In this document: piece after piece, positions 24,728 to 54,614 of the stretch
Layout: each line of letters begins with the position of its first letter
Numbering within the stretch: position 1 is the first letter of the stretch
Made by a program: the position numbers and the translations under genes
From: Stegostoma tigrinum
Taxonomy: Eukaryota
Assembly (NCBI RefSeq): GCF_030684315.1
Contig: NC_081369.1
Span: 2,160,689-2,224,688 of the forward strand
DNA length: 64,000 nucleotides
Direction of reading: 5' to 3'
Notes under the pieces: model-generated
The model's input: only the letters and a program-made list of their open reading frames with translations
Database searches by the model: none
What the model was told of the DNA's origin: nothing

Positions 24728-26620
24728 GAGATAATGGGAACTGCAGATGCTGGAGATTCCAAGATAATAAAATGTGAGGCTGGATGAACACAGCAGGCCA
24801 AGCAGCATCTCAGGAGCACAAAAGCTGACGTTTCGGGCCTAGACCCTTCATCAGAGAGGGGGATGGGGGGAGGGAACTGGAATAAATAGGGAGAGAGGGG
24901 GAGGCGGACCGAAGATGGAGAGTAAAGAAGATAGGTGGAGAGGGTGTAGGTGGGGAGGTAGGGAGGGGATAGGTCAGTCCAGGGAAGACGGACAGGTCAA
25001 GGAGGTGGGATGAGGTTAGTAGGTAGCTGGGGGTGCGGCTTGGGGTGGGAGGAAGGGATGGGTGAGAGGAAGAACCGGTTAGGGAGGCAGAGACAGGTTG
25101 GACTGGTTTTGGGATGCAGTGGGTGGGGGGGAAGAGCTGGGCTGGTTGTGTGGTGCAGTGGGGGGAGGGGATGAACTGGGCTGGTTTAGGGATGCAGTGG
25201 GGGAAGGGGAGATTTTGAAACTGGTGAAGTCCACATTGATACCATATGGCTGCAGGGTTCCCAGGCGGAATATGAGTTGCTGTTCCTGCAACCTTCGGGT
25301 GGCATCATTGTGGCAGTGCAGGAGGCCCATGATGGACATGTCATCAAGAGAATGGGAGGGGGAGTGGAAATGGTTTGCGACTGGGAGGTGCAGTTGTTTG
25401 TTGCGAACTGAGCGGAGGTGTTCTGCAAAGCGGTCAGATGTCCAAGTTCTTTAAGGACCGCAACTTCCCCCCCACGGTGATTGAGAACACCCTTGACCGC
25501 GTCTCCCGCATTTCCCGCGACACATCCCTCACACCCCGCCCCCGCCACAACCGCCCCAAGAGGATCCCCCTCGTTCTCACACACCACCCTACCAACCTCC
25601 GGATACAACGCATTATCCTCCGACACTTCCGCCATTTACAATCCGACCCCACCACCCAAGACATTTTTCCATCCCCACCCCTGTCTGCTTTCCGGAGAGA
25701 CCACTCTCTCCGTGACTCCCTTGTTCGCTCCACACTGCCCTCCAACCCCACCACACCCGGCACCTTCCCCTGCAACCGCAGGAAACGCTACACTTGTCCC
25801 CACACCTCCTCCCTCACCCCCATCCCAGGCCCCAAGATGACATTCCACATTAAGCAGAGGTTCACCTGCACATCTGCCAATATGGTATACTGCATCCACT
25901 GTACCCGGTGCGGCTTTCTCTACATTGGGGAAACCAAGCGGAGGCTTGGGGACCGCTTTGCAGAACACCTCCGCTCAGTTCGCAACAAACAACTGCACCT
26001 CCCAGTCGCAAACCATTTCCACTCCCCCTCCCATTCTCTTGATGACATGTCCATCATGGGCCTCCTGCACTGCCACAATGATGCCACCCGAAGGTTGCAG
26101 GAACAGCAACTCATATTCCGCCTGGGAACCCTGCAGCCATATGGTATCAATGTGGACTTCACCAGTTTCAAAATCTCCCCTTCCCCCACTGCATCCCTAA
26201 ACCAGCCCAGTTCATCCCCTCCCCCCACTGCACCACACAACCAGCCCAGCTCTTCCCCCCCACCCACTGCATCCCAAAACCAGTCCAACCTGTCTCTGCC
26301 TCCCTAACCGGTTCTTCCTCTCACCCATCCCTTCCTCCCACCCCAAGCCGCACCCCCAGCTACCTACTAACCTCATCCCACCTCCTTGACCTGTCCGTCT
26401 TCCCTGGACTGACCTATCCCCTCCCTACCTCCCCACCTACACCCTCTCCACCTATCTTCTTTACTCTCCATCTTCGGTCCGCCTCCCCCTCTCTCCCTAT
26501 TTATTCCAGTTCCCTCCCCCCATCCCCCTCTCTGATGAAGGGTCTAGGCCCGAAACGTCAGCTTTTGTGCTCCTGAGATGCTGCTTGGCCTGCTGTGTTC
26601 ATCCAGCCTCACATTTTATT
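24728..26620 (+). mobile_element. Young 5'-truncated Penelope-like retroelement (GIY-YIG endonuclease) with inverted terminal arms
   Basis: ORF 25375-26307 contains VYCIHCTRCGFLYIGETKRRLGDRFAEH. 24766-25435 is the reverse complement of 25951-26620. Flanked by the duplication ATTAATTTAGGATTT (24713-24727 and 26618-26632) inside a CR1 3' end. Confidence 0.92.
26529..26562 (+). ncRNA. Minimal type I hammerhead ribozyme motif in a Penelope terminal repeat
   Basis: ct-CTGATGA-aGGGtctaggCCC-GAAAC-GTC-ag: catalytic core CUGANGA/GAAA, stem II GGG/CCC, palindromic ACGT stem III, GUC cleavage triplet. Reverse copy at 24825-24854. Confidence 0.7.
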
Positions 26621-27282: not shown

Positions 27283-27328
27283 ATGTTGGTGCTACCCTGG
27301 CTATTGGCTATGGAGGTTATTTACACAG
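27283..27328 (+). CDS. Gene A exon 1, signal peptide MLVLPWLLAMEVIYT(D)
   Basis: ATG followed by 15 mostly hydrophobic codons, then ACAG|GTATTT donor in phase 1, matching the phase-1 V exon acceptor. The 46-nt size is typical of IgSF leader exons. Confidence 0.65.
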
Positions 27329-30300
27329 GTATTTTCATTTGTTATGTTGTTGAGAGAAAAAATGCAACAGATGTTGAGAATCTATTTTTAATTCCAATTT
27401 TGTGTTTAAAACATTTTTGGTTATTGTTGAATGTATTTTCACTCGGAATTGCTATGCAAGATCTGAGATTAAAATGTGAGGATAAATGTAAGATTATGTC
27501 ATGAAATGTAAGATTCTGATAAATGACACCAGCACAATGAGATGGTAAGAACACCAAAGTGTTTTTCAACAAAGGATCGCGCCAGCTCCTTGATCAAAAC
27601 TGTTTGCATACTGTGCTTATGTCTGAGGATATTGTGGAGGTTTTACAGGCAAAATTATTAATTGTCTTTCCAAAATGCTGCATTAGCCTCACAGTTTCAT
27701 TTGACTGATGTGAAAAGTGAGCATGTCATAGAGTCATGGATTCATACATCACAGAAACAGATCGGTCCAACCAGTCTTTGCTGAACATAATCCCAAATTA
27801 AGGTAATCACACCTGCTTGCTCCTGGCCCATATCCCTCCACAACTTCCTATCATGTACTTATACAAATGCCTTTTAAACATTGTCATTGTACCCACTTCC
27901 ACCACTTCCTCAACAAATTAATTCCTCATGCAAACCACTGTAAAAAATTTGTCCCTTATGTATTTTTTAAATCTCTCACTTCTCACCTTAGTGTCCCTGA
28001 GTCTTGAAATTCCTTATCTTAGGGAAATGACAGTTACCATAAACTCTATCTACACCCCTCATTATTTTGTAAACTTCTATAAGGTTGCCTCACAACTTCG
28101 TACCCTCCAGTGAAAAGAGTCACAGCCTCTCCAGAGTTATAGGAACTGCAGATGCTGGAGAATCTGAGATAACAGGGTGTTGAGCCTTTCCAGCCTTTCT
28201 TTATAACTCAAACTTTCCACACCAGCAACATCCTAGTAAATCTCTTCTGAACACTTTCCATCTTAATAATATCCTTCCTGTAACTGGGCAACCAGGATTG
28301 GACACAGCATTCAAGACGAGGCCTCACCAATGTCCTGTCAAACCTCAACATGACTACCCAACTCAAAGACCTGAAGGTAAGCATGCTAAAAGCCTTTTTA
28401 ATCACCCTGTGTCTGTGTGGTACCTGCTGTAACTATACTCTTACAAGACAATTGCGGATGTCATTTTTGAAGAATTTTTTTGTGATAAATCTTAGTAAGT
28501 GCACAGCAATATAGTTTGCATGAACATGTCAGTGGATGTAAGTTGTGCACAAAGAGGCACACAGTTGAAACATAAAAATCAGGGCTTCAGTCGCAACAAT
28601 AACCAGGCTGATAAATATAATGTTATATAGACGCAAAGATTGTGATGACATTGATAAGAATAACCACATGGGAGTGCATATCTAGGATGTTCAACTGTGC
28701 AAAGCTATGATCTAGTTCATCTGACCACGAGTGCACTAAGATTATTTCTAAATTAATTTGCGTGTTAGGATATATGAAGGAGCTAATTCAACAATAAAAC
28801 CGAATGCAAAGCAATTCAAAGGCTTACCTGGGTGGCAGCAGCAACATGCCATTTGATATGCTCTTTCTCAAATGTACTCAACCTGATCACCTCGGTATAT
28901 GCAATTTAAAATGCATCATTATGTTCTGGGCTTCAGAAATGTTCGGTTTTAAGAATTACACGATATCGTATTGCGTGGCAATTGCATAATGGCATGGCAG
29001 ATATGAACTGTTAAAATAAAGTTGTTTTAGACAGCATATTTAGTGCTGGTAGTATTCAATTGCACTCAATTAATGCTCAAAGTATGTATTTGATCATCAG
29101 GAAACATTCCATAATCAACAAGTCAATGACAATTGCTGCATGATTTTTGGCTTCAGCATCACTAATTGCCGTTGCATTTATTTGGTTGCTGTCGATACAG
29201 ATGCTCAGATAAGGGTATCCCAAACTCCCAAATATGCCAACATAATCGCGGGTGGAACCGTTCATCTCTATTGTGCATTGCCTCTTTCCAATGAACCTTC
29301 AGATGTGAGCGTCTATTGGTGGAAACTCGGAAACAATCATTTTCTGCAGTCAAATGAAGGCAACAGAACACAATTTCTTCGTTTGAGGAAGGGTGAGGCA
29401 ACTTTACAGCTGCTGAATGTCAACCATGATGATTCTGGACTTTATTACTGTGGTGTGAGACATTCTGATAATCAAATTGTAAATGGGACTGGATCACAGC
29501 TTGTTATCTATGGTAAGTGGAATGTCCGCATCAAACTATTTCACAAACACACAGAAAATATGAAACCAAGCACATGTCTTCACTGTAAGATTTTATGGTT
29601 GTTCATATTTGGGTCTTCCAAGAGTTCAATTCATACCTTTTAGAATTTAGTTAAAATTCTTATTCATTATTTAATTTAATCAAGACACAGTCTGCTTCAA
29701 TTTACTTTTGAAATGAACAGGAACTAAATACAATATTTGACAAAGTGTCACAAAGTCACATAATTGCTGGATTTAAATAAACATGGTGTATTTTAGAGAG
29801 TGCAAATTTTTCACTGCCCACTGTAAATCTGCCACTGGAATGAAAATATTGTGAAAAAATCTTTATGTGTACGGTAAGTGAAATTGAAACCTCTATCTTT
29901 CTTACAGTAGAACTTTTATTTTAACTGCAGAGTCCTCTGCAACATTCCTGGTTCCATTTTTTTCCCTTTGTATGACGATGATGCTGCTTGTATTGTCAAA
30001 CCTGAGCCTTTTTATACCCTGATGAATAATTATTTCAAAACTGTTTTTGAAATCAAGTTTAGTGCATTTCTATCAGTATTTGTAAGCCAAAAGTAAATCT
30101 AATTTTGATTAATGTGTTTGGGATACTATTTAAAACAGTAATTTAAAAAAATTGATCATGCTTATAATTTTGTTTCTATTAAACATTTATACCTGCTACA
30201 TACAAAGAATTTCAACCTATGTTTATCATTCAATTATTTTAATTGAATAGTTGAAGGTGACTTCAACATTTTCTACATACTAACATAGGAACAGAGGAGC

Positions 30301-33300: not shown

Positions 33301-36300
33301 TTACTAAGTTTACATCTCTTCTGTAACTTTTTTTTAACAGTTCCCCCACGCCAACTGCATATTGATTGCCGCAAGACTGAACAGAATGCATCGACTTATC
33401 TGGTTCTCATTTGTGAAAGTGTTGAATTTTATCCAGGGAATATAAGTATCAGGTGGTACAAGAATGGTGTGAATGTTGACGATGGAATAAACACAGTTAT
33501 AAAGCTAAGTGCAAAAGGTCTGTTTGAATGTTCCAGCACTTTTGAAGAAAAAGAACCTGTCAAAGATAAGACTTTCTACACCTGCAAATTATCTTATCTC
33601 ACAATTGAAATGACCGCCACCTACCAATTTACTTCAACCAGCAATGAAGGTACAAATATATTTTTGTAACAAATGGAAAAGAATATCTGATGAATACATA
33701 TATGTAGTTAAACAGGTTAAATCTCAGAACTAATGGAAGCAATAGGGTCACTCATTCAAATTTTACATTGAATTCCACGTCTTGATTTTGCTTCAATTCA
33801 TGCTCAGCAAATCACCAACACTGGTGAAGCCAAGAATTACTTTCTGACCTCAGTCTCCTTTGAAAGCCTTGCAGGATATACTGTGTGAAGTTTTTTAATT
33901 TAGAATTATGTGCATTACAGTGCTGTCAAGCAGAAATGGCCCATTTTTTCAAATTCACTATTGACGATGGAATATGGAGATGTGTCTAATGGTTGATGGA
34001 CAATTAGGAGTAAGATATCAAATCATTATTTTCTGATATTTTCCATGCTCTTTTAAAAACACAACAATAGCTTTTCCATCTTTAATTGAACAATAACGTG
34101 GGTTAATTCAACGTTGCAAATTTATTTTTTAACAGTTTTCTTTGTAAAGCTGGGCTGCACTGTACTTTTATTATCATCTGGAAGGATTGGTACTAATTGA
34201 GGGCTGGAATACGCCTCTTGCAATGCCATACTGAGAATAATATTACAACATGCCAGAAATAAGTGTCAGTAACAATTGTATTTTCAGCTCCAGAATGTAC
34301 CTAGTTGATTCACAAAATATGATGCGTGATCTTGAAGAAATTTCAAAACACAATTCATTGTTGAAATGATGTATCGTTGTAATGTTAAAATGCAAGCATG
34401 ACCTCTTTGAATACTGTTCAGTGCTAGTATCTCTTTTTAAATTTGCAAAATTAAAATTTTATTGTTAGCATACATGATGCATATTAATATCACATATTAA
34501 AGCAGCACTTGAAATGGGTAGAAAAATGATTAACAACATACTTGGCAGTCCTTCGAAGCATTGCAGCCCCAGAAAATTTGGATACGTTTTCAAAATAACT
34601 GCAGGAGAATTGAGAAGTGGGAATGGACAATACTGTTTTACAACATAAATCTTATTTTTGATATTCATTTTACAGGAGATGACAGCATATTTTGGTACAT
34701 AAAGGTGTACGGATCAGCAGGAGGTGGAATCTTGATTTTATTGTTGCTAATAGTAATGTGGAGGAGATATCTTTTGACATCATGTAAAGGTACAAAATAG
34801 TTCAGTTGATTTCAGTTCCAAATGCTCCTTCATGTTCATTCATTAGGGAAGAACACTTTGGAAGGCACTAAGGTACTTTGATTGAGGTAGCTGCTCTCTA
34901 AAATCAGAATATTAAATGGGAAAAGTAAGCACATCAGTTTGTCTTGGAACCACAGGTGCAGAGTAACAGAGAATTAACAAATTGTGTCTTTATCAAGATT
35001 TCATCTTGAATATAAAATAGCACTTGGGATATTTAACAAAGAGTTGGTAGCTCTTCTGGCCAATGGAAAAGAGTTATCACCCAACTGATACTGGTATATG
35101 GTTAATTTCTTTTTAATCTAGTTGCTGCAAGTGAGACCTTACTATCCCCAATGAATTTCTGCACTTTTTTTTGCTAGATGTTCAAATCATATGAATAGAC
35201 TTTTAGTCATGGGTGTGGGCATCACTGGCTAGGCCAGCATTTATTATCCATCCCTAATTGCCTAGGCTGTAGATCAGTGTTAACTACTTTGCTGTGGGCC
35301 TGGAGTCACATGTAGACTAGACTAGGTAAGGGATGGGAGATTTCCTTCCCTGAAGGACATTTGTGAACCATTGGGTTATTCTGACAATCAACACTGGTTT
35401 CACGATCATCATTAGCATCCTAAGTTCAGATATTTGTTGAATTCAAATTCCAACATCTGTCATGGCAGGGCTTGATCCCAGGCCCCCAGAATATTACCAA
35501 GGTCTCCAGATTAATAGTCTAGCAATAATACCATCAGGCCATCACTTCCCCAGTAAGCTGCGTGATTTTGAATCAACCACACTCCTGTAATTCTATATGT
35601 AGGCCAGGAAATGTAAGAAAGATAGCTTTTCTTCTACTTACTATGGATTTTCATGTAAACCAGTTACAGTCACAATCACTGGAAGTGATTTTCAATTGAA
35701 TTTAAATTGCATCACCTGTGGTGGTGGGATTTGAATCCATAGTCACAGGACGAGAGACCTCAGGATCATTAGTCCAGATACATTGCCAGTACCCGAGTAT
35801 CCCACTTCTTTGAGCAATGGAAACAACAACAATTAATTGATTGTATTATTGAACACAATGTTGTACAGTGCTTTAAGCTTGTCTGAAACTGTTGTGGACT
35901 CGTGGAGAGTCACTTCAAAATACAATTAATGTTTACTACTTAATTCCAAATATTACAGGGATAGAGAATTTCACAGACCAAGCACCACACCCTGAAGATT
36001 CGGTACGTCATTTTGTCAATCTGTTGTGCTCTGTTATGAAAAATTTAATAGTTGTGACGGTAAATATGACATGCAATGATAGATACATTTATACTTGAGG
36101 TTGAAGTATGCTGTTTCACTCCTTCGGGGAAACTCTTTGAAATATATAAACTAACTACTTACTTCAGACTTCAATGAGAAAATTCAAAACGCCATGTTTT
36201 TCGTACAGGACCTTACTGCAGTCTTTGTATGTCATTGCAACTGATCCCATCAAATAGGATGTATATACAAATTTTGATGCAGTCAGTCACAAAATTGTTG

Positions 36301-38195
36301 CTATTAATATTCAAACCTGCACATGTGTGGACCAAGACGAAGTATGTCAATTTACTCAGTTATTGATCAGCCATTATGTTAATGATGAAATTTTCCAAGA
36401 ACTCAACAATTCAAAGCCTTCAGTCAGGCATTTGCCTCAGCACTATATTGAAACAATTCTTAGGAAAGTGATCAATAACAACTTTTGTGATTGTCTCAAA
36501 GGTACAATATCTCTTCATATCCTTTTTGGTCTGTCTGCAGAGTTGGATGTGATTGTCATCTGGCTGTTTTACCTTTTACCCACCTAGGTTTATTTGCTTG
36601 ATATAATTGTAATGCAGCGAGTCATCTCAAGCAACATATCTGTATTCTCAAGCAGCATTACTTCTTGTATCACAACAGACTTTGTCCTTATTGTGCATTT
36701 CCACTCATGACCCATCCAGGCCAGCAAAACATAGAGCTTGCTCCGATCTGTGCACCAGGCTGGCCATTTTTCTTCATCACTGTCAACTCAATCATTGGGC
36801 ATAAATGATCAGATTGATTTTCAGATACTCAGTGCTGAATGCGAAACATATTCATACCATTAAATTGTGGAAATAAATAAACAATGCCTTCCTTCTCAAC
36901 TACAAATTCTGGACTTCTGCAACCAAATCCAGTTTTTTACTGGCAGCTGGATAAGACTGTCATTAAACTTGGTGCTATATTTGTGCCCATGGTGATGTCC
37001 CCAAAGAAATATTCATAGCTCATCTGCTGCTGAAGCTCTCATCCACATTTCTGTTACTTCAAGACTTTTGTCATAACCATGTTCAGACATCCAAAGTTTC
37101 ATGTTATGTGAGGTCATCCAATGCTCTGCCACCACTTGTCTTTTTTTTGATGTTTCATTGAGCCGTCACTCCTGCAAAAACTGCACCCTCCCCCCCCACT
37201 ACCCCACATCCACTCCAAATTAAGCAATAATGTGGTTTTAATTTTTCAATGCCATTCTTTATTCTTACTTAACTCTATGTCTTTGCCACTGTCCGCTTTG
37301 ATACCTTCTTCAGCCTCCAAAACGCTCTGTCTAGATTTTAATTGTTCCAACATTGATGGCTATTTGTCAGACACAAGGAGAATTATGCTCTGTCCTTGTT
37401 CTAAACTCTCTGCTTCTTCAATTTGTTTTGAATTCTATGATAGTCCTTGAACCAGTGTTTTGCACTTTGTTTTCTCACATTAGTCTCAGTATTGCCTTAT
37501 GCTCAGTCTCATATCTTGCTTCTGTGAATTGCCTTCACCAATTTTACTGTTAAAGTTACTATTTAAATGTATACTTTTGTTACCTCATGTAAGCCTCCTG
37601 CAGGTTGCAAGACAGCTGTACTTTGAATCCAAACATGAATCGTATGCAAAATGAAAATTATGATATATCCTGTCCAAATAATATTTGTTTAAATGTGTAT
37701 GTGTTTGGGAATCTTAATCTTAAAGTTTACGTTAAACTTTCCAACTCTGGTTCACCTATAGAGGTTAGAGATAACAAAGTGTAGAGCTGGATGAACACAG
37801 CAGACCAAGCAGTATCAGAGGAGCAGGAAAGCTGACATTTTGGGCCTGGACCCTTTCTGAACCCGAAACATCAGCCTTCCTGCTCTTCTGATGCTGCTTG
37901 GTCTGCCTTCTTCTTCCAACTCTACACCTTGTTATCTCAGATTCTCCAGCATCGGCAGTTCCTACTATCCTTACTGTGGAGGTTGTTCAGGTTGGTGCAC
38001 ATGCTTTTATAAACAATGTCAAAATAAATGAGTAAACCAAATAACACACATTATTTTATGTTTAATGCTTTGTGTTTAATGCAGAGGGGAGGAAATGAAC
38101 TGTCGCTTTATGCATCATTGGCTTTAACACCATCAATGAAAATGGTCAGAGCCCAATATCAAGAGGAGTTGACTGAGTATGCTCAGGTATGCTGA
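27283..38195 (+). CDS. Gene A: spliced IgSF type I membrane receptor (leader-VJ-C1-TM-cytoplasmic ITIM+ITSM), 311 aa; non-rearranging antigen-receptor-like / SIRP- or NITR-like inhibitory receptor
   Basis: Six GT-AG exons with compatible phases (1,1,1,1,0): 27283-27328, 29201-29512, 33341-33649, 34676-34789, 35959-36002, 38085-38195. Total 936 nt, open from ATG to TGA. Confidence 0.85.
27725..28410 (-). mobile_element. CR1-type LINE 3' fragment in gene A intron 1
   Basis: Minus-strand LVRPRLECCVQSW..VQKRFTRM peptide. Confidence 0.75.
29201..29512 (+). CDS. Gene A exon 2, V-set Ig domain with in-exon J-like strand
   Basis: DAQIRVSQTP...VHLYC...VYWWK...ATLQLLNVNHDDSGLYYCGV...NGTGSQLVIY. Acceptor TACAG at 29200, donor G|GTAAGT at 29513. 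Confidence 0.93.
33341..33649 (+). CDS. Gene A exon 3, C1-set Ig domain
   Basis: VPPRQL...LVLICESVEFYPGNISIRWYKNG...GLFECSS...YTCKLSY. C1 hallmarks L-x-C-x(4)-FYP and W-x-K-N-G. Polypyrimidine acceptor ttttttttaacag, donor G|GTACAA. Confidence 0.92.
34676..34789 (+). CDS. Gene A exon 4, transmembrane segment
   Basis: GDDSIFWYIKVYGSAGGGILILLLLIVMWRRYLLTSCK, a hydrophobic run followed by RR stop-transfer. Acceptor ttttacag, donor G|GTACAA, phase 1/1. Confidence 0.88.
35959..36002 (+). CDS. Gene A exon 5, short cytoplasmic exon (GIENFTDQAPHPEDS)
   Basis: ttacag acceptor and TCG|GTACGT donor. Converts phase 1 to phase 0, as needed to join the ITIM exon in frame. Confidence 0.7.
37767..37970. 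mobile_element. Miniature fold-back remnant of Penelope termini in the last intron of gene A
   Basis: gagataacaaagtgtagagctggatgaacacagc... followed by its imperfect reverse complement ...ctctacaccttgttatctc. Similar short terminal remnants lie near 6720, 9172, 9925, 10840, 14200 and 39700. Confidence 0.7.
38085..38195 (+). CDS. Gene A exon 6, terminal cytoplasmic exon with ITIM and ITSM
   Basis: tgtgtttaatgcag|AGG..., translating RGGNELSLYASLALTPSMKMVRAQYQEELTEYAQVC*. Confidence 0.85.
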   Translation, partial: RGGNELSLYASLALTPSMKMVRAQYQEELTEYAQVC

Positions 38196-38773
38196 GAAAA
38201 GAATGAAAATGCAAATAAAGGCAAGAGGGAAAATACATTATTTGTGTAATGTTACTTTGCTCATTCCACATGCTAGGTTTCTGAACCTTGACCTTTTTTT
38301 TGACTGATAAGCCAATGTGAAAGTGTGCAAATGCTAGTTACGTTTCCTAACACCTGTGTTATAGATAAAGCAAAAAAAAATTGATTGTCATCCGACATAT
38401 GCTGCACAAGAATTGTTTGGATCCAAGAAAACAGAGAAGCCTAAGTTAGAGGATAAAATATCCAACCATGGTCAGCCACCAGGGAAAACCCAAAGAGTAA
38501 CAGAAGAGACTGTCTGCAATGAAGAGGAAGCCACCTAATGTTTCCAGCCATACAAGGCATGCAGATTTCTCATGGCAAATACAATAGCATGGATTTTTGC
38601 TCTAATTATGCAGCCAGTGCTTTAAAAGACACAATGTTTTAATGAAAATGTGTTAACTGCTGTCGATTTGCTTTGTAATTTGTAACTCAACTGTCATATT
38701 CATAAAGTTGACCTGTGGCAAATGTCTGTATGAACACAATTCTTTCATGTTGCAACCAATTTTACGATCCTTG

Positions 38774-42340: not shown

Positions 42341-42380
42341 ATGACTGCCCTCGCTTTGCTTAAGTGTGTGGTCATCCTAG
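42341..42380 (+). CDS. Gene B exon 1, signal peptide MTALALLKCVVIL(A)
   Basis: caaaATGA start context, hydrophobic codons, CTAG|GTTTGT phase-1 donor, 124-nt intron. The signal peptide continues AFGSASS in the V exon. Confidence 0.8.
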
Positions 42381-45300
42381 GTTTGTTTCGCAGTTTCTAT
42401 TTTAAACCTTTGTGCTCACTCCTGGTTGACTACATCCCTGTCAAATGCAAGTCAGGTCCAGCATTTTATTAATGGATTTTACCTTTCTGTTCTTTCTTTG
42501 AAAGCTTTTGGCTCCGCCAGCTCCCAGGTGTTACAAAGGCCCCAACGCATGGCTGTGAATTTGGGTTCAAATATAAGTATCTTTTGCGAGTTCAGTCTTC
42601 TGTCAGATGACTCAGAAGCGAATATTTTCTGGTGGAGACTTGGCGACAGTGTACTTGAGCATCCTAACTCTGACTCGAGAAGACAATATTTTAAGAGAAA
42701 AGGACAAGGCACATTCAAGATCTTTGACATCGGTCTTCAAGATGCTGGTGTTTATTACTGTGGAGTCCAACAACAAAGTGATATTGTTATTAACGGGACT
42801 GGGACAACACTTGTTGTCCATGGTGAGTTTCATTGTAGCTGTTGCAATTGATGAGAATTCTTCCAAGTTCATTGAATTACTTGAAATGTTTGACATCAGG
42901 TTAATGTGATTTGTGTCTGACGTAAGTATGTTCGTGAGCCTTTCGAATCTCGTCTCTTGCCCATTTATTTTCAATATTCCTTATAAGGTATAAGGGATAT
43001 GTTTTCTTCACAGAATTGATAATGACCAGTCATTAATCAGTGAACCTATTTAAACCTATTTGTATTACTGCAACTCTGACTAGGTTGTTAAGATTACTAA
43101 ATCATTGGAGACTAGTGTAAAATGTTCAATTTGAGTGATGTTGAACCCATTACCATCATTCATATATACACATATCTAATTTCATATGAATAAGTTCTCT
43201 ATTCTGTTCTAATTTCTATACAATTTGGCAATTCTAAAGGTTAATAGTTTGATATTTTGAAACTTTATTGTAGAGTCGCAACAAAATACTTGAACTCTTA
43301 AAAATATTGAAGCCAAAGATGTTTGTCATAAAATGTATGCTTACAGATATAACTGCCCATTTTATATACTATTGCCCTAATTATGCAACTTCCAGAAAAT
43401 GGTTACAGTACTTTGCAATACAAAAGTGAGTTGGGAGAAGAATAATTGTTCAAACACGTAAATAGATGTTTCATTAATCAGTTTATATAGTGAATACATT
43501 CACAGTTCACAGTGGCACGGTAGTGGAGCTTGTGGCAAATTTTCTTGGAATAATTATGAACAGAATTCAGGCTGATTTTCCATAATGCCATAAAATCAAA
43601 TATCTGACAAGCCTTCATTGAATAAACAAATAGCTGTTTATGGTCATTTATAGTTCTAGCTTTTTTTTAATATGTTGACCTTCCCCCAAAATTTCAAATT
43701 GAGCAAGGAAACTTCCATATCTTATCAGGCCCACTATTCCAGAAATATTCCAACATTTAACTGATGGACTTGGGTTGCTCTTTTACTTCAGCTGTTGGGA
43801 TGACTACTGTGTTATACCAGTTCATTTGAGTTGGGAAAACAACCAATTCATGTTTATCCTTTTGGTGGTAAATTATTCCACAGCATATTTGGAAAGGAAG
43901 TATAATATTAAAACTGGAAAAAAAAACTGTGGATGCTGTAAAACAGGAACAAAAACAGAAGTTGCTGGTAAGAGCTCAGCAAGTTTGGCAGCATCTGTGA
44001 AGAAAAAATCAGATGTAATGTTTTCGGTCCTTCTGAGGAGGGGTAACTTCTGTTTTAGTTCTTCAAGTATATTGGCTGACATTCCTCTCTTAATCTGTAG
44101 GACATTGGTGAGACCACATCTGAAACAGTAAACAGATGAATGCATCTCATTGTTATTTTATTTGACACTTGAATCATGAATATCTGTTTTAATTCTATGA
44201 AATACTATGAAATCTGTTCTATGAATCAAAATGCCATAATGGCATTGATATATGGGGCCATATGAAACAGAAGAAAAAGTAAAATTTGTTTTTTTCGAGG
44301 CTGCTCCACAATTCAATATGATCATGGCAGATATATTTGTATTTTGAATAGCGCGTTCTCACCCACTCCCGATGATATTTGATTCCAATGTTTGATAAGA
44401 ATCTACTTATCTCTGTTGAAAAAAACTCCTGATCAAACGCCACCACCTTTAGAGACAAACCTCAAAGACCTAACAGAGAAGGAAATAATCTCCTCAGGTT
44501 GGCCGTAAAGAGTGAGACCTAATTTTAGAACAGCATCCTCTCGATCTGGCTGATCCAGAAGACGAAGCATCGTTTCCATGTCCATCTTGTCAAGACCATT
44601 CAGGATCAAATAAATTTCAATCATGTCATCCTTCACTCTTCTAAACTCCAGTGGAAACAATTCCAGCTTGTCAAGTCTATTCTCTTTATTTCTCTTATTG
44701 AATATTATCATTAACTTGTCGACATATTTGCAGAATGGTGATGATGACCACTCTTTGTTCTTTATTCCTCTTCTGACTTAGCTACTAATGCTTTGCTCCT
44801 TGGGACATTCCTTGTTGGTTCTACCTACCTTTCTGCAGCTACCTCTTTATGTTTGAATGTTATTGTTCCACCATAAGGCCAAATAGCCTGCGACAACACT
44901 TTAGGGATTCTATGAGCCTTGTGATAGAATCCTAGCCTTAGCCATAACCAATAATCATTTATACTGCCCTATCTCTCCTTTTCCTTTCCTGACTGTATTT
45001 CTTAATTTTTGTTGCAGTCATTGTGGACAACAACAATACGGCCCATTACTTCAGCCGCATGCTGTTACACTGGTGGCTCAATTACAGCCCCAGCATGGAT
45101 GCCATGAATCTGAATTAGTTTTTAGTCATTTTCAGTCCCAAATTGGAAACTGCAGTAAAGATTATGATCACTATGACTTTTGGATGAATTCAGTGCAAAG
45201 CCCTTACTAGTGAACCCTGTCTTTCAGCACCTCCTGTACATAGCATTCTTTCAGATCCTTTGATGCTGAATGAAACTGCCCTTGCACCCCCTTTCAGCAG

Positions 45301-48300
45301 TAAATATGGATGGTAAATAAAGGATACTCATCTATTTTTCAGCTTCAGTTCAAAATGAGTGCCCTGATCACAGTGCAAGATTATTGTGGTCACTCCTAAT
45401 GACTGACCACAGGAGTCTCAAGTATAGAATTTTGATTGTTTATTCAAACATATACAGGCAGAGTGTCCACTCAAATGAAAACTCTACTGTCCACAAGAAA
45501 TTCATGAATTCGTAAATTTTAGTCAAGTCCACAAATTCTACCCTTGTCAAAACACAGAACGCAATAAACAGATCTTTCTACTTCTCACCTATAATGTTTT
45601 CTTCAATACTGATCAGTTGATTCTATTCCCTACTTTTGCCTTCTAATCAATTAATCCTTCATGGGTCCCAAAGCTTTCAGGAATATCCCTGCTGTTCTCA
45701 GCCATACTGGTGTTCAAGGCTTATCTGGAAAAGTATTTGTTCAAATGTACTGTGAACATAGAGATCAGTATTTCACATTTTAAGTCCAGATAACTCTCTG
45801 AAATTGGCTATACATGATATGCCTTTGTCAAAACCATACTGACTCTTCCCAGTTAGCTTCTGATTTTCAAAATGAACAATATTTCAAAATATTATCTCTT
45901 TAATGATCGATTCTACAGTTTTACACATCATAGTCACAATGTAAATTCCCTTTAGTTTATTGTTTTCTTCCTCCTTCCTTCATGGAATAGAATGGTTGTG
46001 TCTATTATTTTACAATCTGATGAAACCTTTCTTGAATCTATAGCGTTTTAGAAAATTAGCCCCGATACATCAATCAGTTCATTTACAAGTTCTTTTAGGA
46101 TGAACTTTATCTGGACTCCAGACAGGCCAGATTTGATTAATACAACTTCTTGCATGATTGTAATTTGCTGAATTCATCAAGCCCTTCCATTTCCTGAATT
46201 ATAGCTATTACTGAAATGTATTTTGCACTCTGTGCAGTGAACACAAAGCAAAATATCTGTTCTTGTCAATGCAATTTCATCACTATCTACAATCAACACT
46301 TCATTTTCATTCTCTAGAGAACCAAGATTGACTTTGCTGACTCTTTTCCTTGTTAAATACACTTAGATGCCCTTGCTCTCCATTGTTGCATTGCTATATA
46401 GCTTCCTCTCAGACTCTAATTTCTCTTGGAGATCCTCTGGCGTTCTTTATATGCTGACTAATAATTTAGCCTGGTGCTCATCGTTGGGCAATTGTGTGTG
46501 TTTTGCTTACATTTGATGTTTTCCCTCACTTCTTTAAATAACCATGGATGATGGGTCTTCTCTTTTAGGATCTTTCTTTGTCATGGGAAAATACTTATTC
46601 TGAGTTCTCAGAAACATCTACTTTAATGCTTGTTAATCTGTCTACAGTGATATATCCTCTAGCCTAATATGCCAGTAAACTTCTGCTCACCCAAGATAAT
46701 TCACCATATTGGAGACGTTATCATATTTAACATTGTGAGGAACTGCTCGATGAATGTTGTTGTTTCATAAGTGCTCTTTTAATTACTTGGTTTCCACCAT
46801 CTTAAATTTAAAAATTTAAAATGAAGTATAAGATGTAGTCATTGCATTCTTCTTCTTTTCTGTATATAATAATCAAAAATTTCAACATTGAACAATTTTA
46901 CTTAAACCCCATTATAGCTCCACCGTCTCCTCCAACTATACTATCCAAAATGTCAGATGAGAATTCAAGCATCTATCTGCACCTCATATGTGAAGCAGTT
47001 GATTTTTACCCAGAGGCCATTATCTTCAATTGGTACAAGAATGCTAGAAAGATTACAAATGGAATTAAAACTACACAATACTTGAACTCAGAGGGACTCT
47101 ATCAAGCATCCAATATTCTGCAAGAGTTACAACCAATCCAGGAAGGAAGTTCTTATATTTGTTTGATATTGCATAGCACCCTCCAGGCTCCAAAGTTATC
47201 CACTTACACGGTGTCTAGTTCTAATCAAGGTAAGATGTAACTTTATTTTTGTAAAAATCATTCGGCTGGCTTTTGCTGAGAAATATCACTGTGGCTGGGA
47301 ATTGTCATTTATTGGGAAATTAGGTACTGATGTCTGGGGTCTGCTTGTGGGTATGTAAGCAAGAAATGTAAAAATCATCTCCTCCATATGCTATTGGATA
47401 ACTCACAGTGTTTCATCAGACATGAAATTGCTGTGCATCCTGTGTTAGATACGTGTGACAGTATTTGAAGTATTGCTGTTTAATGAGACTTTCTAAGCAG
47501 AATAGCTACTGACGCTTGAGAGAATAATTTCATGCAAAGAGAAAAATACTCATGAAGAGTTTTCAGTCAACACTGCTAAGTGATCAAGCTGTAGAGAAAG
47601 GAGAAAAAAAATAGGGTTTGATCAACAAGCTGTGGTCTGACAAATTATGTTGATAACATTTCAACATTGCCTTGCATGTTGAGTGGTAAGCTTGATCAGT
47701 AATAAGATCAGCACAAATGAGTATTTTGTTGCATGTAAATGAACACTTTGAAAACTCATGCAAACATGTTTAAAATGTACAAAAATGTACATAATTAATT
47801 CAGTAAGATGATATAAGTTAACTTTGAATCAGTGGAATAGACTCCATTAGATTGACACATCCATATCACAAAGGTAGATGGTCAACTCTGTTGGGTCCCA
47901 AACATTAGTATCAAGACATCACCACAAGATTTGAAACTGCAGTTTGCTAAATCCAACTATCTTCAGTTACTTCATTAATGATCTTCACTTCTTCCTAATG
48001 TCAGAAATGGAGATACTTGCTGGTGATTGGACAAAGTTGGCATCATTGAGGCTCCTGAGATACTGAAGCAGTCCACTTCCATATGCAGGAACCCTCTACG
48101 ACATTCAAGTTTGAGCTTATAAGTGGCAGTTAACTCCACAGAAATGCCGGAAAGTGACCAATTTCAAAAACAGCAACTCTGGTTAGCTCCCCTTGAAGTT
48201 CTAAGATTTTATTAATGATTAGTCCACCACTTTCAACATTCTGGGGCTTACCACTGTCTTTGAACTGCACTAGACCAGGCACATAAGTATTGCGGCCACA

Positions 48301-51083
48301 AGAACAAGTAAGAATATAGATATCTGTGGCATGTAACTCACCCTATATCTTCCAAATCCCTACAATGCTGTTCCAAGTCAGAGCATTGTTCTGTGCTGGC
48401 ACAATGCCGACAATTTTTAACCAACTGGACAATATTGATGACAAAGCCAATGACGTTTCCTTGGCACACAATCCATCACATTCAATATTGATTTCCTTTA
48501 CTACTAACTCACACCACTGTTGTGGGTGATATCCGCAAGGTGCATTCCTGAATTCTGCAAAGCTTCCTATGTCAGATCATACTACTGTGCAATCCACAAT
48601 GAAGAATAAGAAAGATAGGACTCCCATTAAATCACCAGCATCTCCAATCTAGTCACACACTATCCTTGGGACTTGGAATACTATCATTGTTTCAAGCATT
48701 CAAGCAAAGAAGTTGCTATTTTAGTCTGTAGCTTAAATGGAGGAATGGTAAATCTTTCCAGTTGTATTTTCGTCTAGATTTTCATGATCACTATTATATG
48801 AAGGGAATGTTTTACATTAGCATGTAAATACAATCTTGCCATTTAGGCCATAATTTACAACTGCTTGTTCTGGGATAAGAAGCCCAGTTGTCTCTCATGT
48901 GACAGTTGCATTGGAATTGCTTGGTCAAGCAAGGAGTCCATGAATATTTCATGCCACTGTATTGATTGGTATAAAGTTATTGGAGAAACTCATAACTGCA
49001 TAGTGATAAAGCAATGACATTTTCTAATTTATATATGCAATCTTGTGGACTGAGCATGACATACACCCGCTAATGTGAGAAAACAAAATGAGCATTATTT
49101 GACCCACACAAGAAATACAGAGGAATTCCCATTGATCCTGTGGGATTAGAATGAAAACCAAACCACAGAAAGGTGTTTTGAAGGATGTGTTCTTTTCAGT
49201 TGCTCAGTGATGCCAGCAAAAATTGACAACAAACTGTGAACATGATCCTTTGCCAGTTCATTTTAAATCTACCCAGACGCAGGCATCTCCAGACCTATTC
49301 TCGAGCACAGTTTTGAAATACTCGAGTGAAAACAGTTTCAGGCACTTTTTTTTCACTCTTCTCTAGTTGAGTTTGAAATCTTTGGAGGTGCATAACTGTT
49401 TACATATTTCTAAAAGCAGCTTACCTTTCAATTTTAATTGGAACAATGTTTGAATAACAAACATGCACTTAATGAAAAAGAGTTTAATTTCATGAAGCGA
49501 AAAATTAACTTCAGCAACTTTTCAATGTTTCAATCATAATTACAGACATCTCATCAGCCAATGCTTGATAAAATTTCCCAGAATTCAGAGTTAAATTTTA
49601 AATAGGTTTAGGTGCAACATGGTGCTAATATGACCAAATTCTGCTCAGAACCATTCTTTACTCATTTCACATGATAACAAACAGAATGCATTTGAAAACA
49701 TTTCTAAATGCTGGCATTTCACCAATTTTCAAGCTTTAGGACATAGAACAGTTTAGCATAGGAATGGGCCCTTTGGCCCATGATGTTGTGCCAAACTTGA
49801 GCCCCTGGATGGCTTTATACAGCAATGCTCTTCAGGGTCCTGCCATTAACTGCATACTTATCCTTAACATTTGATCTCCCGAAGTGCAGCACGTCATCAT
49901 TACCCAGATTAAACTTCATCCGCCATTTCTCCACCCATATCTGCAAATGATCTATATCCTGCTATATCCTTCGACACTATCCAAAACTCTACCAATCTAT
50001 GTATCATCTGCAAACTTACTAACTCATCAAAATCATTTATGTAAATAGTAAACAGCAGAGGTCCCATTATGGATCCCTATGGAACACCTCTAGCCAGAGA
50101 AACACACTTCCATCATTACCCTCTGCCTTCCATGGGCAAGCCAATTCTGAATCCAAGCAGCAAAGCAACAGTGAATCCCATGCATCTTAATCTTCTAGAT
50201 GAGCCTACCATGAGGGGCTTTGTAGGAAGCCTTCCTAAAATTCATGTGGACAGCTTCCACCTCTTACCTTCATTACCACCTTTGACATATTCTTGAAAAA
50301 TTCAGTTGAATTAGTAAGTCATATCCTGCCCCTCATAAAACCACACTGTCTGTCCCTAATTAGGTCATGTTTTTACAAATGCATGTCAGTCCTATCCCTA
50401 ACAAGCCTCACCAATAGCTTTCCGACCACTGATGTGAGACTCATCGGTCTATAGTTTTCTCGATTGACCCTATTTTCCTTCTTGAACAAAGGAACAGTTC
50501 ACTACTCGTCAGTCGTGTGGGATCTCTCCCATAGCTAATGAGATGCAAGGCATTGTTAGCATTTTTACTATTGCATATTAAATTTTAAATCACTTGGGTA
50601 TGTAACTTCAAAACAAAACTTATTAAAAAAACCAACACCATTGTATTGTAATAGTAATGCTGTTAAATTATTTGTAAAATTCATACAGTACAAAGTCTGG
50701 AATAGAATTTGTAGCATTATGTTAGTTATACTATAGAATTGAATCAGTAACTTGTATCATAATAATTTATAACTGGCCATTCATTTATTGATAAATTTAT
50801 TTTTTGAGATAATCTAGAAAATTCTGCAGTTTAATTTTGTGCTATTTACATCTTGCAGTTCCCAAAATTGGCTTATTAATCCAATTTATATTGGTCATTT
50901 TTCTAATCCTGATTTTGGCCTTCATCCTCATGGATTACTGTAAAGCAATGCATTTCAGAAGGTAAGAATCTACTGAATGAAGTGAAAAATTGTGCCCTTG
51001 TGGAACAACTGAGAAAAATTGAAAGTAACTTGTATATTTCTTGCAGCATGCATAACTTAAACAAACCGTACAGGGACCAATAA
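42341..51083 (+). CDS. Gene B: spliced IgSF type I membrane receptor (leader-VJ-C1-TM-short tail), 269 aa; paralog of gene A
   Basis: Exons 42341-42380, 42505-42822, 46918-47229, 50859-50961, 51047-51083. Phases 1,1,1,2 are compatible and 810 nt are open from ATG to TAA. The terminal exon is the least certain. Confidence 0.83.
42505..42822 (+). CDS. Gene B exon 2, V-set Ig domain with in-exon J-like strand
   Basis: SQVLQRP...ISIFC...IFWWR...FKIFDIGLQDAGVYYCGV...INGTGTTLVVH. Acceptor ttctttctttgaaag, donor G|GTGAGT. Confidence 0.93.
44220..44700 (-). mobile_element. Old CR1-type LINE fragment in gene B intron 2
   Basis: RLDKLELFPLEFRRVKDDMIEIY peptide. Confidence 0.6.
46918..47229 (+). CDS. 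Gene B exon 3, C1-set Ig domain
   Basis: APPSPP...LHLICEAVDFYPEAIIFNWYKN...GLYQASN...YICLILHSTL. Shows the FYP, WYKN and Y-x-C-x-x-x-H C1 motifs. Donor G|GTAAGA. Confidence 0.93.
49740..50550 (-). mobile_element. CR1-type LINE fragment in gene B intron 3
   Basis: Reverse-orientation CR1 tail (acatagaacag...) and RT-like sequence. Confidence 0.65.
50859..50961 (+). CDS. Gene B exon 4, transmembrane segment
   Basis: tcttgcag| VPKIGLLIQFILVIFLILILAFILMDYCKAMHFR, donor AG|GTAAGA (phase 2). Confidence 0.85.
51047..51083 (+). CDS. Gene B exon 5, short terminal tail (S)MHNLNKPYRDQ*
   Basis: 85-nt intron with acceptor atttcttgcag. Reading from phase 2 reaches TAA at 51081-51083, which overlaps AATAAA at 51079-51084. 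Confidence 0.55.
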
Positions 51084-52245: not shown

Positions 52246-54614
52246 ACAAGGAGCAAATGATAGCTTCCAACTGATTATTGATTGAGCAATAATCTAAACA
52301 AAGTTCCTATTTTTTGTGTTTAGAGATGCATAATGAGTAGTGGAAAAATAGTATTTATTTCAATCTGATCTACCATTCTGCCATTTTCAAAACATTTTTA
52401 GTATCACTGCTTTTACAGTCTTGAAAGTGTGCATGCTTAACATGTCTTAATGACAACATTAGGAAAAATGCAGAGTAATACAGTTGTCTGAATGGTATTG
52501 TGGGAAAAGAACAGTATTTTATAAAAGTAAATGAAATTTTCTATTTCCAGGATTGTCCAAAATAATTTCAGTTAATTTGGGACCTGAGCTAATGGCTTAC
52601 TATACTGTCCAATACATGGATTGTACTTCATCCAGTCTGCAGTGTGGTGAAAGAAGTTTTGTTTTATTATCCTGCTGATTTGTTTCTCTCACAGTAGATT
52701 GCTCTTCGATTGTATAAATAGCCTTTGGATTATTTTCCTGATAATTTACAATGGTTTCAAACATTTTCATTCTTGCCATTTGTGAAAGACACATTTTTAC
52801 ATGTTATGTTTTCTCAGCAGATCTCCACCAGCTACAAAACTATGTTTGAATATCTGCCTAGGAATAATGTTCATGAAATTACCAACTAAAAATTTGTATT
52901 TGATATTATAAAAATGAAAAAAATGCCTCTTTCAGAAATGGGAAGCACTTGGATATCTTGCATGCTGCATTACACATTTTGCAATATTAAGTTCTACAAA
53001 TGTTAGAAGTCAATTTTGCATTAGAAGTTCAATGAGTGCTGCAAATTAAATCCAAATTTCAGCTATCACTCGAAAGATTAATTTAAGTTTAGTCCATTAT
53101 TCATATTACAGCTGTCACAATTTTGAGTTCTACAATGAAAAGTTAAATGCCAACATGTTAGCTCCCTCTGTTAGCGTTAAAATGTAATTTCAGTCAAATA
53201 AGTAAAGTTTAATTGTCTCACTCTCCCAAGCTTCACAACCCATTGTATACAATCTGGCGGCCTGATTGTTTTAGTTTCCAAATCAAGTAGGTTGAAGTAA
53301 ATGGAGTGGAATTTAAGTAATATTCTGGACAGCCTGTAAAAGAATCGGAATTTGTTTTAATTCCAATTGTTGTTACAATATATTTACAATAATACAATAT
53401 ATTTATGGTCATACATTTGGCAAAACCGTAACTGGAAATTAATGACATGTTACATGTTGACACAATGGCATTATATACCCAAGCAATTTATAATTTAATA
53501 AAGCAAAATTAAAATGCTAGTAAAGCTTGAAATTGATGAAATGCCAACAGTTAGAAATACTTTCAGATGTAACCTATTTATTATCATATGAAATAAGGAT
53601 CAAATGGTTCTGAACAGAATTTGGCTGCATTAGTAACACATTCCAATTAAACCTGTGTACAATTCAATTCTAAATTACTGAGGAAGTAGTTCAAACAATT
53701 TCTGATGAGATATTTATCACAATAATTCAAGCATTACAAAGTTCACAAAATTCATTTTATCCTTCAAAAAGTTAAACTCCTTTTCATGAAATCTGATTTG
53801 CTATCCAATTACTTTTTGAATTAAAATTACTACATAAGCGACCTTTACGAATAGTTAAACATCTACAGAGCAATGCTACTTCAAATCCAAACAAAGAGCT
53901 TTGAAGAAAAATACCAGATCAAGTGTATTGAACACAGTATCTTTGGACTCTGTTTATAATATGGGAAGATGTCAAGGAGGAGTCTCAAGTTCTGTGTTAA
54001 GCGGTACAAGTGAACTTTAATCAGAGCTGTTACCACAAATATCAGAGAGGCTAGAGACCACTTTGAATCTGGCTTTCATGGGGAATCCAGTTGTCCTATT
54101 AATTACAGCTCAGATCAGAGGAGACACCAGTGACACTCTGGCTTCCCGAGCAGAATACATTATTTTTAAACATTTTGCATTACAATGATGAGATGCAACA
54201 TTGAGGTCATCTTATATTTCTTCATATTCTAATCACAGGAGATACAAAAAGGTGCTAATTCCTACTGATTGCTATAAAATTCATAATATCAGTTTTAATA
54301 TAAAGTTTGTTATACATAAAGCTACATGGTTCCACTGAATGTCAGAATTCTTTAGCTAACTAGTTTTGAACAGCTTCTGTCCCACCTAAACATGGAAGGT
54401 CAGGTAAAGACTGACACTTCATCTTGCAGGTGCAACTGTAACTCCGTCTATTCTCAAGCTGTCGATAAGAGTGTTTTAAATTGAAGATAGCCCGGAAGAT
54501 TAAATTTACTGACCCCACTCTAAATGTTTCAACGCCACGTCTTTTACTTAATGAAAAAAAACGTCTATTCAAATTCCATCAATAAGACTGAAATTCAATC
54601 ACTTTCACTGCTCC

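What the first reader, a model, noticed from the sequence alone, without database searches (positions are those of the whole stretch)
29201..29512. Compact, IgNAR-V-like V domains (short FR2-CDR2 region) in both receptors
Seen: only 58 (gene A) and 57 (gene B, 42505-42822) residues lie between the canonical B- and F-strand cysteines, and WWKLG/WWRLG replaces WYxQ. Established: conventional Ig/TCR V domains have roughly 64-75, while shark IgNAR V domains have about 60 because they lack much of the C'/C''/CDR2 region and work as single domains. Inference: these germline V domains share the VNAR-type fold, either as a relative of the NAR V lineage or by convergence.
Basis: partly seen in the sequence, partly recalled or inferred. 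Interest (0 to 1): 0.75.

Follow-up and report, generated by a model that had tools for sequence, protein, structure and literature searches.

The report
Shark receptors with trimmed antibody-like tips
Two neighbouring shark genes that show no sign of DNA rearrangement are predicted to encode cell-surface receptors whose antibody-like tip is as short as, and predicted to fold like, the shark single-domain antibody, likely by independent trimming in a large shark, ray and chimaera family of probable on/off immune receptors.

Summary
Observation confirmed: 58 (A) and 57 (B) residues lie between the cysteines, and WWKLG/WWRLG is present. Both exons are germline V+J exons of V-C1-TM genes with no recombination signal above chance; A is an open 366-aa gene with ITIM and ITSM motifs. 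The short V is a family trait (53-58 in 59 of 59 aligned rows), with members named from sharks, rays and a chimaera. A confident model (pLDDT 90.6) has a vestigial C' and no C'', so the fold claim holds. It is not VNAR-specific: NCAM Ig1 (I-set), VNAR, TCR V and CD79b lie within about 1 Z unit, identity to VNAR (21-25%) is no higher than to TCR, and six reptile V domains outscore the best VNAR on the family profile. Best reading: independent trimming in a SIRP/NKp30/PRARP-type paired receptor family (about 0.7). No tree with VNAR or NARTCR could be built, so kinship is not excluded (about 0.12). Added here: the J-Phe/Trp pairing position is an N-glycosylation site in 40 of 61 members, which would block V-V pairing. 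The scan noted this compact V before in other genomes (three notes) and this family repeatedly in this genome.

The parts
27283..27328 (+). Gene A leader exon (predicted), phase 1
   Evidence: tblastn match to the leader of P0008; ATG and GT donor; no RNA support available
29201..29512 (+). Gene A V exon (the finding): strands A to G with J-like G-T-G in one exon; Cys24, Trp39, Cys83; 58 between the cysteines; sequon N-G-T at the J-Phe/Trp position
33341..33649 (+). Gene A C1-set exon, with two extra cysteines
   Evidence: Pfam C1-set E 1.2e-08; splice sites and cysteines
34676..34789 (+). Gene A transmembrane exon (uncharged core)
   Evidence: 19-residue hydropathy 2.1
35959..36002 (+). Gene A cytoplasmic exon 1 (predicted from AG/GT and phase only)
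38085..38186 (+). Gene A cytoplasmic exon 2: ITIM SLYASL and the first part of ITSM TEYAQ-I
38365..38538 (+). Gene A last coding exon to TAA; third tyrosine motif degenerate
   Evidence: whole model open, 366 aa
42341..42392 (+). Gene B leader exon (two possible phase-1 donors, after 42380 or 42392)
42505..42822 (+). Gene B V exon: Cys27, Trp42, Cys85; 57 between the cysteines; same sequon at the J-Phe/Trp position
46918..47229 (+). Gene B C1-set exon
   Evidence: Pfam C1-set E 1.4e-11; 66% identical to P0042
50859..50961 (+). Probable gene B transmembrane exon of the family's short-tail type (Gln where several relatives have Arg; Asp at the inner end); GT donor follows, and read-through stops at once
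   Evidence: tblastn 54% to P0163, E 0.008; acceptor read from the context printed, where my exon start was one base off; link to gene B is inferred

Best explanation
The exon encodes a short, germline-joined V-J domain, predicted to lack the C'' strand, at the tip of a predicted V-C1 membrane receptor that likely acts as an inhibitory member of a cartilaginous-fish paired receptor family, and its likeness to shark VNAR is likely convergent. Shown: exon structure, open frame, cysteine spacing, no recombination signal above chance, ITIM and ITSM motifs in A, a large family with the same short V. Predicted: A/A'-B-C-(trace C')-D-E-F-G topology. Inferred: the family's ancestor shortened the C-C' loop and C'-D stretch of an NKp30/SIRP-type VJ domain before chimaeras and sharks split; the domain works unpaired, because the J-Phe/Trp that cores VH-VL and TCR pairing is mostly an N-glycosylated Asn, whose sugar would cap the old interface beside the conserved second Trp; ligand binding would lead to tyrosine phosphorylation of A's tail and SHP-1/SHP-2 recruitment, as in SIRP-alpha and PD-1 (own knowledge), while short-tail members such as B would activate or act as decoys.
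For: Family: 429 proteins at E<=0.001, 150 listed; 59 chosen by eye as family plus A and B align with almost no gaps; every family member whose name was looked up is a shark, ray or chimaera protein. Spacing 53-58 in 59 of 59; Trp to C' anchor 8 residues in 59 of 59. Family is one clade: 99/93 on 35 of 66 rows, 98/98 on 15 of 43 rows with the C'-D columns removed. Model pLDDT 90.6, one bridge at residue 47, no strand from 48 to 55. Structure ties: NCAM Ig1 Z 15.4 (rmsd 1.8, 98 aligned), VNAR 15.2-14.3, TCR V 14.9-14.2, CD79b 14.1, NKp30 13.0; Foldseek TM to query 0.81-0.84 for NCAM, 0.69-0.79 for VNAR rows. Identity to VNAR 21-25%, to TCR 17-26% (29% for one TCR). No VNAR among 42, 55 and 51 PDB sequences hit by A, B and P0170. 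On the same profile best VNAR 51.5 bits and CD79b 51.6, but 6 of 32 outgroup domains score 54-70. Short V domains recur elsewhere: reptile receptors 51-62, snake SIRP-like 61, ray multi-V protein P0075 60. RSS scan no better than shuffles. Asn at the J-Phe/Trp position in 44 of 61, full sequon in 40 of 61. Tails: of 60 longer proteins 23 have ITIM-like motifs, 24 a hydrophobic segment without one, 13 none found.
Against: VNAR is rank 1 in Foldseek and fills 20 of 50 rows in the second look (VNARs are also abundant in the PDB). It is one of only two single-V entries in the top 60 of the profile search. The top ESM Atlas cluster for both genes is auto-named 'putative Antigen receptor (Fragment)', 107 aa, 0.96 and 0.95, which may be a VNAR cluster (naming recalled, not checked), though a PD-1 cluster scores 0.95 and 0.94. 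The outgroups were found with gene A as query, which favours them. No tree holds VNAR, NARTCR, Ig or true TCR V; the family's sister group is unresolved (71/82). Only A was modelled with an alignment; coordinates could not be inspected, so the glycan cap is inference. No expression, ligand or signalling data.
Confidence: 0.7

Rival explanations
1. The family's V is a non-rearranging sister of the NAR V lineage: one compact single-domain VJ gene gave both this receptor family and, after RAG-transposon invasion, IgNAR V and NARTCR V.
For: Same taxon range, similar length (58 against 60) and predicted topology; VNAR top in Foldseek and tied top in Z; best single-V profile match together with CD79b; possible VNAR cluster first in the ESM Atlas. 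PMC12227049 (Discussion read) speculates that the first antigen receptor was a single-domain VJ like IgNAR V; the V-C1 profile also hits UrIg2 and Ig light chains.
Against: Identity to VNAR is at TCR/NCAM level; no phmmer hit to any VNAR; other receptors score higher on the profile. By recall only, VNAR keeps the longer antibody-type C-C' loop, a shorter CDR1 and a longer D-E loop, whereas this family has cut the C-C' loop (8 residues to the C' anchor), so the residues are lost at different places. CDR3 is fixed at 8-10 residues and A and B have no extra V cysteines.
Confidence: 0.12
2. The short V is old rather than newly trimmed: it comes from a compact V/I-intermediate domain of early jawed vertebrates shared with CD79b and with reptile multi-V ITIM receptors, and VNAR is unrelated to that line.
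For: CD79b matches A over its whole length, is top single-V profile match, Z 14.1. Five reptile compact domains score 55-70 bits, the best non-family scores, and lie on the family's side of the first tree (89/77). PMC11599192 (passages) lists CD79, NITR, SIRP, CD8, NKp30 and PRARP as one set of joined-VJ genes.
Against: With the C'-D columns removed the reptile group no longer sits with the family and the deep forks are weak; equal length inflates profile scores; CD79 was not in the trees.
Confidence: 0.13
3. The domain is an ordinary I-set adhesion domain recruited onto a C1 receptor, with no V ancestry.
For: NCAM Ig1 has the top Z and top TM-score; Robo, titin and contactin lead the sequence searches through summed domains.
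Against: Pfam V-set beats I-set by five orders of magnitude in A and two in B; GxG J-like G strand in 57 and 59 of 61 rows, CDR1- and CDR3-length loops; best full-domain sequence relatives are VJ-type immune receptors.
Confidence: 0.05

Closest known systems
IgNAR V (VNAR) and NARTCR V of cartilaginous fish
   Same: Cysteine spacing 57-58 against 60; predicted loss of C''/CDR2 with a trace of C'; Z 14.3-15.2, rmsd 1.6-2.1; likely unpaired.
   Different: Germline-joined, no RSS; fixed 8-10 residue CDR3; one C1, TM and ITIM/ITSM tail instead of IgNAR or TCR-delta constant regions; 21-25% identity; glycan site at the J-Phe/Trp position; residues lost at different places (VNAR side recalled).
SIRP family (SIRP-alpha, -beta, -gamma; PDB 2wng, 4i2x)
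   Same: Joined VJ tip on C1, paired tails with and without ITIMs, tandem clusters; SIRP-alpha is the best non-Ig hit with a C1 domain for the V-C1 profile (107.5 bits); databases often name members SIRP-like.
   Different: One C1 rather than two (SIRP architecture recalled); shorter V; V domains do not group with the three SIRP-like domains sampled; CD47 binding untested.
NKp30/NCR3 and NCR3-like genes of frog, turtle and gecko
   Same: Joined VJ exon; gene A V is 34-35% identical to frog NCR3 domains; turtle NCR3-like domains are nearest in the first tree (98/62).
   Different: NCR3-type proteins fetched here have no C1 and 62-66 residues between cysteines; NKp30 Z only 13.0.
PRARP / VJ-C1 genes (Fu et al. 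2019; Ohta et al. 2019)
   Same: By recall: non-rearranging VJ-C1 membrane genes with ITIM/ITSM tails, in pairs. Seen here only as citations in PMC10751288 and PMC11599192.
   Different: Could not be compared: neither paper is held and no PRARP sequence was identified among the hits.
I-set domains (NCAM Ig1) and CD79b
   Same: Same predicted topology; Z 15.4 and 14.1.
   Different: Family has a J-like GxG strand, V-set profile and C1 partner; not tandem adhesion domains; no ITAM.

Membership tests
IgNAR V / NARTCR V | V split from D and J, with recombination signals | tested here: not met
   G strand lies in the exon, GT donor follows; best RSS-like site near A has 4 mismatches (28 of 200 shuffles as good), near B 6 (196 of 200); V-C1 introns 4 and 4 (103 and 93 of 200) (consensus signals recalled)
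IgNAR V / NARTCR V | About 60 residues between the canonical cysteines | tested here: met
   58 and 57 against Cys22-Cys83
IgNAR V / NARTCR V | No C''/CDR2, very short C' | tested here: met
   predicted model of A only, pLDDT 90.6; Z 14.3-15.2 to VNARs
IgNAR V / NARTCR V | Joined to IgNAR constant domains or to a TCR-delta V-C | tested here: not met
   single C1, TM and tail exons; no other V or C exon of the family in the window
IgNAR V / NARTCR V | Sequence affinity to VNAR above other V domains | tested here: inconclusive
   21-25% identity and no phmmer hit, outscored by 6 of 32 outgroup domains; but best single-V profile hit with CD79b and possible ESM match
IgNAR V / NARTCR V | Groups with NAR V in a tree | not testable with these tools
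   no VNAR or NARTCR sequence among the 181 proteins stored at that point (recalled motifs)
I-set | Short C', no C'' | tested here: met
   definition from PMC8470474
I-set | I-set rather than V-set sequence pattern | tested here: not met
   Pfam V-set best in both genes; GxG in the G strand
SIRP | V-C1-C1 ectodomain (recalled) | tested here: not met
   one C1 exon per gene
SIRP | ITIM/ITSM tail in inhibitory members, tail without ITIM in others | tested here: met
   gene A SLYASL and TEYAQI; family counts
SIRP | V domain groups with SIRP V | tested here: inconclusive
   separate from three SIRP-like domains, deep forks weak
NKp30/NCR3 | V-only ectodomain with charged TM (recalled) | tested here: not met
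   C1 exon present; A has an uncharged TM core and an inhibitory tail
PRARP / VJ-C1 | Orthology by sequence and synteny | not testable with these tools
UrIg / UrIg2 | VJ followed by three or more C1 domains | tested here: not met
   architecture from PMC12227049; one C1 here; the family profile aligns to UrIg2 V only from strand E onward

The most novel reading that the evidence does not exclude
This family is the living non-rearranging sister of shark IgNAR/NARTCR V: a compact, single-domain VJ-C1 surface receptor of the kind that the RAG transposon invaded, so that VNAR's I-set-like shape is inherited from a cell-surface receptor rather than lost from a conventional antibody V.
Probability: 0.12. 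Interest if true: 0.85.

Novelty: new variant of a known kind. Interest (0 to 1): 0.42.

Why it matters
A multigene family of VJ-C1 receptors with ITIM and non-ITIM tails across sharks, rays and chimaeras would be a main candidate for their NK- or myeloid-type on/off receptors; databases mislabel members as SIRP, tapasin, B7-H6 or light chain, and ten paper searches found no description (two key papers could not be read). If the short V is convergent, it is a second natural route in the same animals to a C''-less unpaired V domain, apparently using a glycan instead of polar substitutions, which warns against reading cysteine spacing or fold likeness as NAR kinship. If it is kin to NAR V, it would bear directly on which gene the RAG transposon invaded.

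Tried and rejected
Single-sequence fold of A failed (pLDDT 36.8) and was not used. Two word-index protein searches for longer relatives found nothing; the full HMMER scan found the family. No whole genome is held, so synteny and copy number were not tested. No RNA holder listed. No VNAR sequence could be obtained: none among stored proteins, none printed in papers by motif search (one supplementary file of PMC12865624 searched; bioRxiv supplements are closed). BTLA, a recalled compact ITIM/ITSM receptor, is not listed in the top 50 rows, which does not exclude it. No complex prediction was run, since the claim is absence of pairing. Paper searches without a description of the family. Rows left out: of 150 hits 59 went into A1; near-duplicates (P0047, P0112, P0130, P0136) and non-family hits were left out; one search dropped one duplicate; one search kept 13 family proteins plus A and B and dropped three long or poor NITR-like rows. 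Rejected: pseudogene (A is open, B's V and C1 are open), rearranged germline-joined Ig light chain (TM and ITIM tail, no F-G-x-G), UrIg.

Full report
Observation. The coordinates are exact exon limits with AG and GT ends and phase 1 on both sides; read from 29203 and 42507 they give open V domains of 103 and 105 residues with 58 and 57 residues between the two cysteines and the motifs WWKLG and WWRLG. Pfam V-set is the best family for both. In an alignment of A, B and 59 relatives the first Trp is invariant (61 of 61), so it is the canonical one; the second Trp (52 of 61) takes the place of the Tyr of WYxQ, and the Gln position is variable. Contigs of two DNA runs of one study cover the A exon without a difference; they may be the assembly's own data.

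Genes. Translated searches of the window with 68 family proteins and splice-site checks give two genes on the + strand. Gene A is leader, V, C1, TM and three tail exons, open over 366 codons, with an ITIM (SLYASL), an ITSM across a splice (TEYAQI) and a degenerate third motif. Gene B is leader, V, C1 and probably a TM exon at 50859-50961 of the family's short-tail type. All splicing is predicted: no RNA holder was listed. Each V exon holds its own G strand with G-x-G, and no heptamer-nonamer pair near either exon or in the V-C1 introns beats shuffled sequence (best 4, 6, 4 and 4 mismatches; 28, 196, 103 and 93 of 200 base shuffles as good). So these are germline-joined, non-rearranging VJ-C1 genes.

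Family. A scan of 1.84 billion representatives gave 429 proteins at E up to 0.001. I picked 59 of the 150 listed as family by eye, so the spacing count is partly selected; all 59 rows with both cysteines have 53, 55, 57 or 58 residues between them (15, 5, 3, 36 rows). Members whose names were looked up come from Heptranchias, Heterodontus, Carcharodon, Mustelus, Scyliorhinus, Hemiscyllium, Chiloscyllium, Mobula, Pristis, Leucoraja and the chimaera Callorhinchus, under labels such as SIRP-like, tapasin-like, B7-H6-like or light-chain-like. The family forms one clade with all columns (99/93) and with the C'-D columns removed (98/98), so it is not grouped by its shortness alone. Of 60 longer proteins, 54 have a C1 motif, 23 an ITIM-like tail motif, 24 a hydrophobic segment without one (some are truncated models or wrong picks) and 13 none. 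The short V therefore predates the chimaera-elasmobranch split (inference) and is not special to this window.

Fold. With the 61-row alignment AlphaFold2 gives pLDDT 90.6 and pTM 0.83: strands at 6-8, 11-14, 20-25, 36-41, 56-60, 65-70, 79-86, 92-94 and 98-102, one bridge at 47 and nothing from 48 to 55. That is a trace of C' and no C''. Foldseek ranks a VNAR first and NCAM second, with TM-scores to the query of 0.69-0.79 for VNAR rows, 0.81-0.84 for NCAM Ig1 and 0.80 for NKp30. By Z, NCAM Ig1 has 15.4, VNARs 15.2-14.3 (20 of 50 rows), TCR V domains 14.9-14.2 and PD-1 14.3; among 48,161 representatives NCAM1, NCAM2 and a skate VNAR tie at 15.0, then CD147 14.4, TCR V-beta 14.3, CD79b 14.1, NKp30 13.0. 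Rows within 1 Z are ties. PMC8470474 (passages) states that VNAR is topologically like the I-set, and PMC12051499 (passages) that PD-L2 also lacks C''. Gene B was not modelled.

Kinship or convergence. For kinship: the structural ranks above; a VNAR (51.5 bits) and CD79b (51.6) are the only single-V entries in the top 60 of a 13-row V profile against the PDB; the first ESM Atlas cluster for both genes is named 'putative Antigen receptor (Fragment)', possibly VNAR, level with a PD-1 cluster. Against: structure-based identity to VNAR is 21-25%, to TCR 17-26%, to NCAM 20-23%, whereas family members share 30-52% with A in alignment A1; A, B and P0170 hit no VNAR among 42, 55 and 51 PDB sequences; a profile rebuilt from the same alignment gives 54-70 bits to 6 of 32 outgroup domains, five from reptile multi-V ITIM receptors and one turtle NCR3-like (these were found with A as query, a bias in their favour); A is 34-35% identical to frog NCR3 domains in local alignments. 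Equal length alone raises profile and Z scores. Short V domains recur in other VJ-type receptors: 51-62 in reptile receptors, 61 in a snake SIRP-like protein, 62 in shark IgSF6-like, 60 in four domains of ray protein P0075. The family has 14 residues from Cys to Trp, 8 from Trp to the C' anchor and 43 from Trp to Cys in A; from recall, not from a call, VNAR has 13, about 12 and 46, that is, it keeps the antibody-type C-C' loop. If so, the two lost residues at different places. The direct test, a tree with NAR V, could not be run, and the family's sister group is unresolved.

How it likely works. In Ig and TCR the J-encoded Phe or Trp before G-x-G is the core of V-V pairing (own knowledge). Here that position is Asn in 44 of 61 rows, with a full N-x-S/T sequon in 40 of 61, including A and B; six more have a sequon two residues on; no row has Phe or Trp (one search lists 60 rows' residues; the last, P0069, has Arg). 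A glycan there would cover the old interface next to the conserved second Trp. This is inferred from position, not measured on the model. It points to an unpaired V, reached by another route than VNAR's. The CDR3-like loop is 10 residues in 51 of 59 rows, so diversity comes from gene number, not recombination. Gene A would bind a host or microbial ligand and recruit SHP phosphatases through ITIM and ITSM; short-tail members would counter it. Ligand and cell type are unknown.

Known relatives and novelty. It works most like SIRP-type paired receptors (SIRP-alpha 107.5 bits against the V-C1 profile, behind Ig chains, UrIg2 and titin) but fails the SIRP, NKp30, UrIg and NAR architecture tests. 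PMC12227049 (introduction, results and discussion read) and PMC10751288 (passages) discuss UrIg, NKp30 and PRARP as joined-VJ genes and do not describe this family in the parts seen; PMC11599192 (passages) lists the joined-VJ set; PMC12865624 and PMC13640736 (passages) gave VNAR numbering. Ten searches found no description, but Fu 2019 and Ohta 2019 are not held and may list shark VJ-C1 genes; supplements of the MHC and UrIg papers were not read and could do so too. Earlier notes of this scan report the family in this genome and the same compact-V point in other genomes with the same verdict; they are unchecked AI notes and no independent support. My first reading, written before seeing them, was already convergence in a paired VJ-C1 family.

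Verdict. Real feature, fold claim supported by prediction, NAR kinship unlikely but untested by tree. New variant of a known kind; interest 0.42.

Noticed in passing
window 29482-29490 (gene A) and the same position in gene B's V exon: The J-Phe/Trp position carries an N-glycosylation sequon in A, B and 40 of 61 family rows, a possible glycan cap on the V-V pairing face.
   Followed up: partly
window 42341-50961: Gene B looks like a hybrid: its V and C1 are closest to P0036/P0153 and P0042, and P0042 and P0153 have the long tyrosine-bearing tail, but the TM exon found is of the short-tail type, with Gln where P0013, P0022, P0165 and P0166 have Arg.
   Followed up: partly
window 33341-33649: Gene A's C1 has two extra cysteines (exon residues 9 and 63) and Tyr in place of the usual F-strand His; these could form an extra or an inter-chain disulfide.
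   Followed up: no
window 38365-38538: Gene A's third and fourth tyrosine motifs are degenerate or lost compared with its close relative P0008.
   Followed up: partly
   Followed up: partly
window about 24800-25450 (-) and 25920-26580 (+): An inverted duplication: open frames on opposite strands give identical translations, part of a retroelement with a GIY-YIG-like endonuclease stretch (Penelope-like, class recalled); similar pieces lie near 2400-4500 and 54600-55900.
   Followed up: no
P0101 (Chiloscyllium, 781 aa): A bamboo shark protein model made of tandem antigen-receptor-like V domains with 72 residues between cysteines and in-exon G-x-G strands; may be a real multi-V gene or a mis-joined model.
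   Followed up: no
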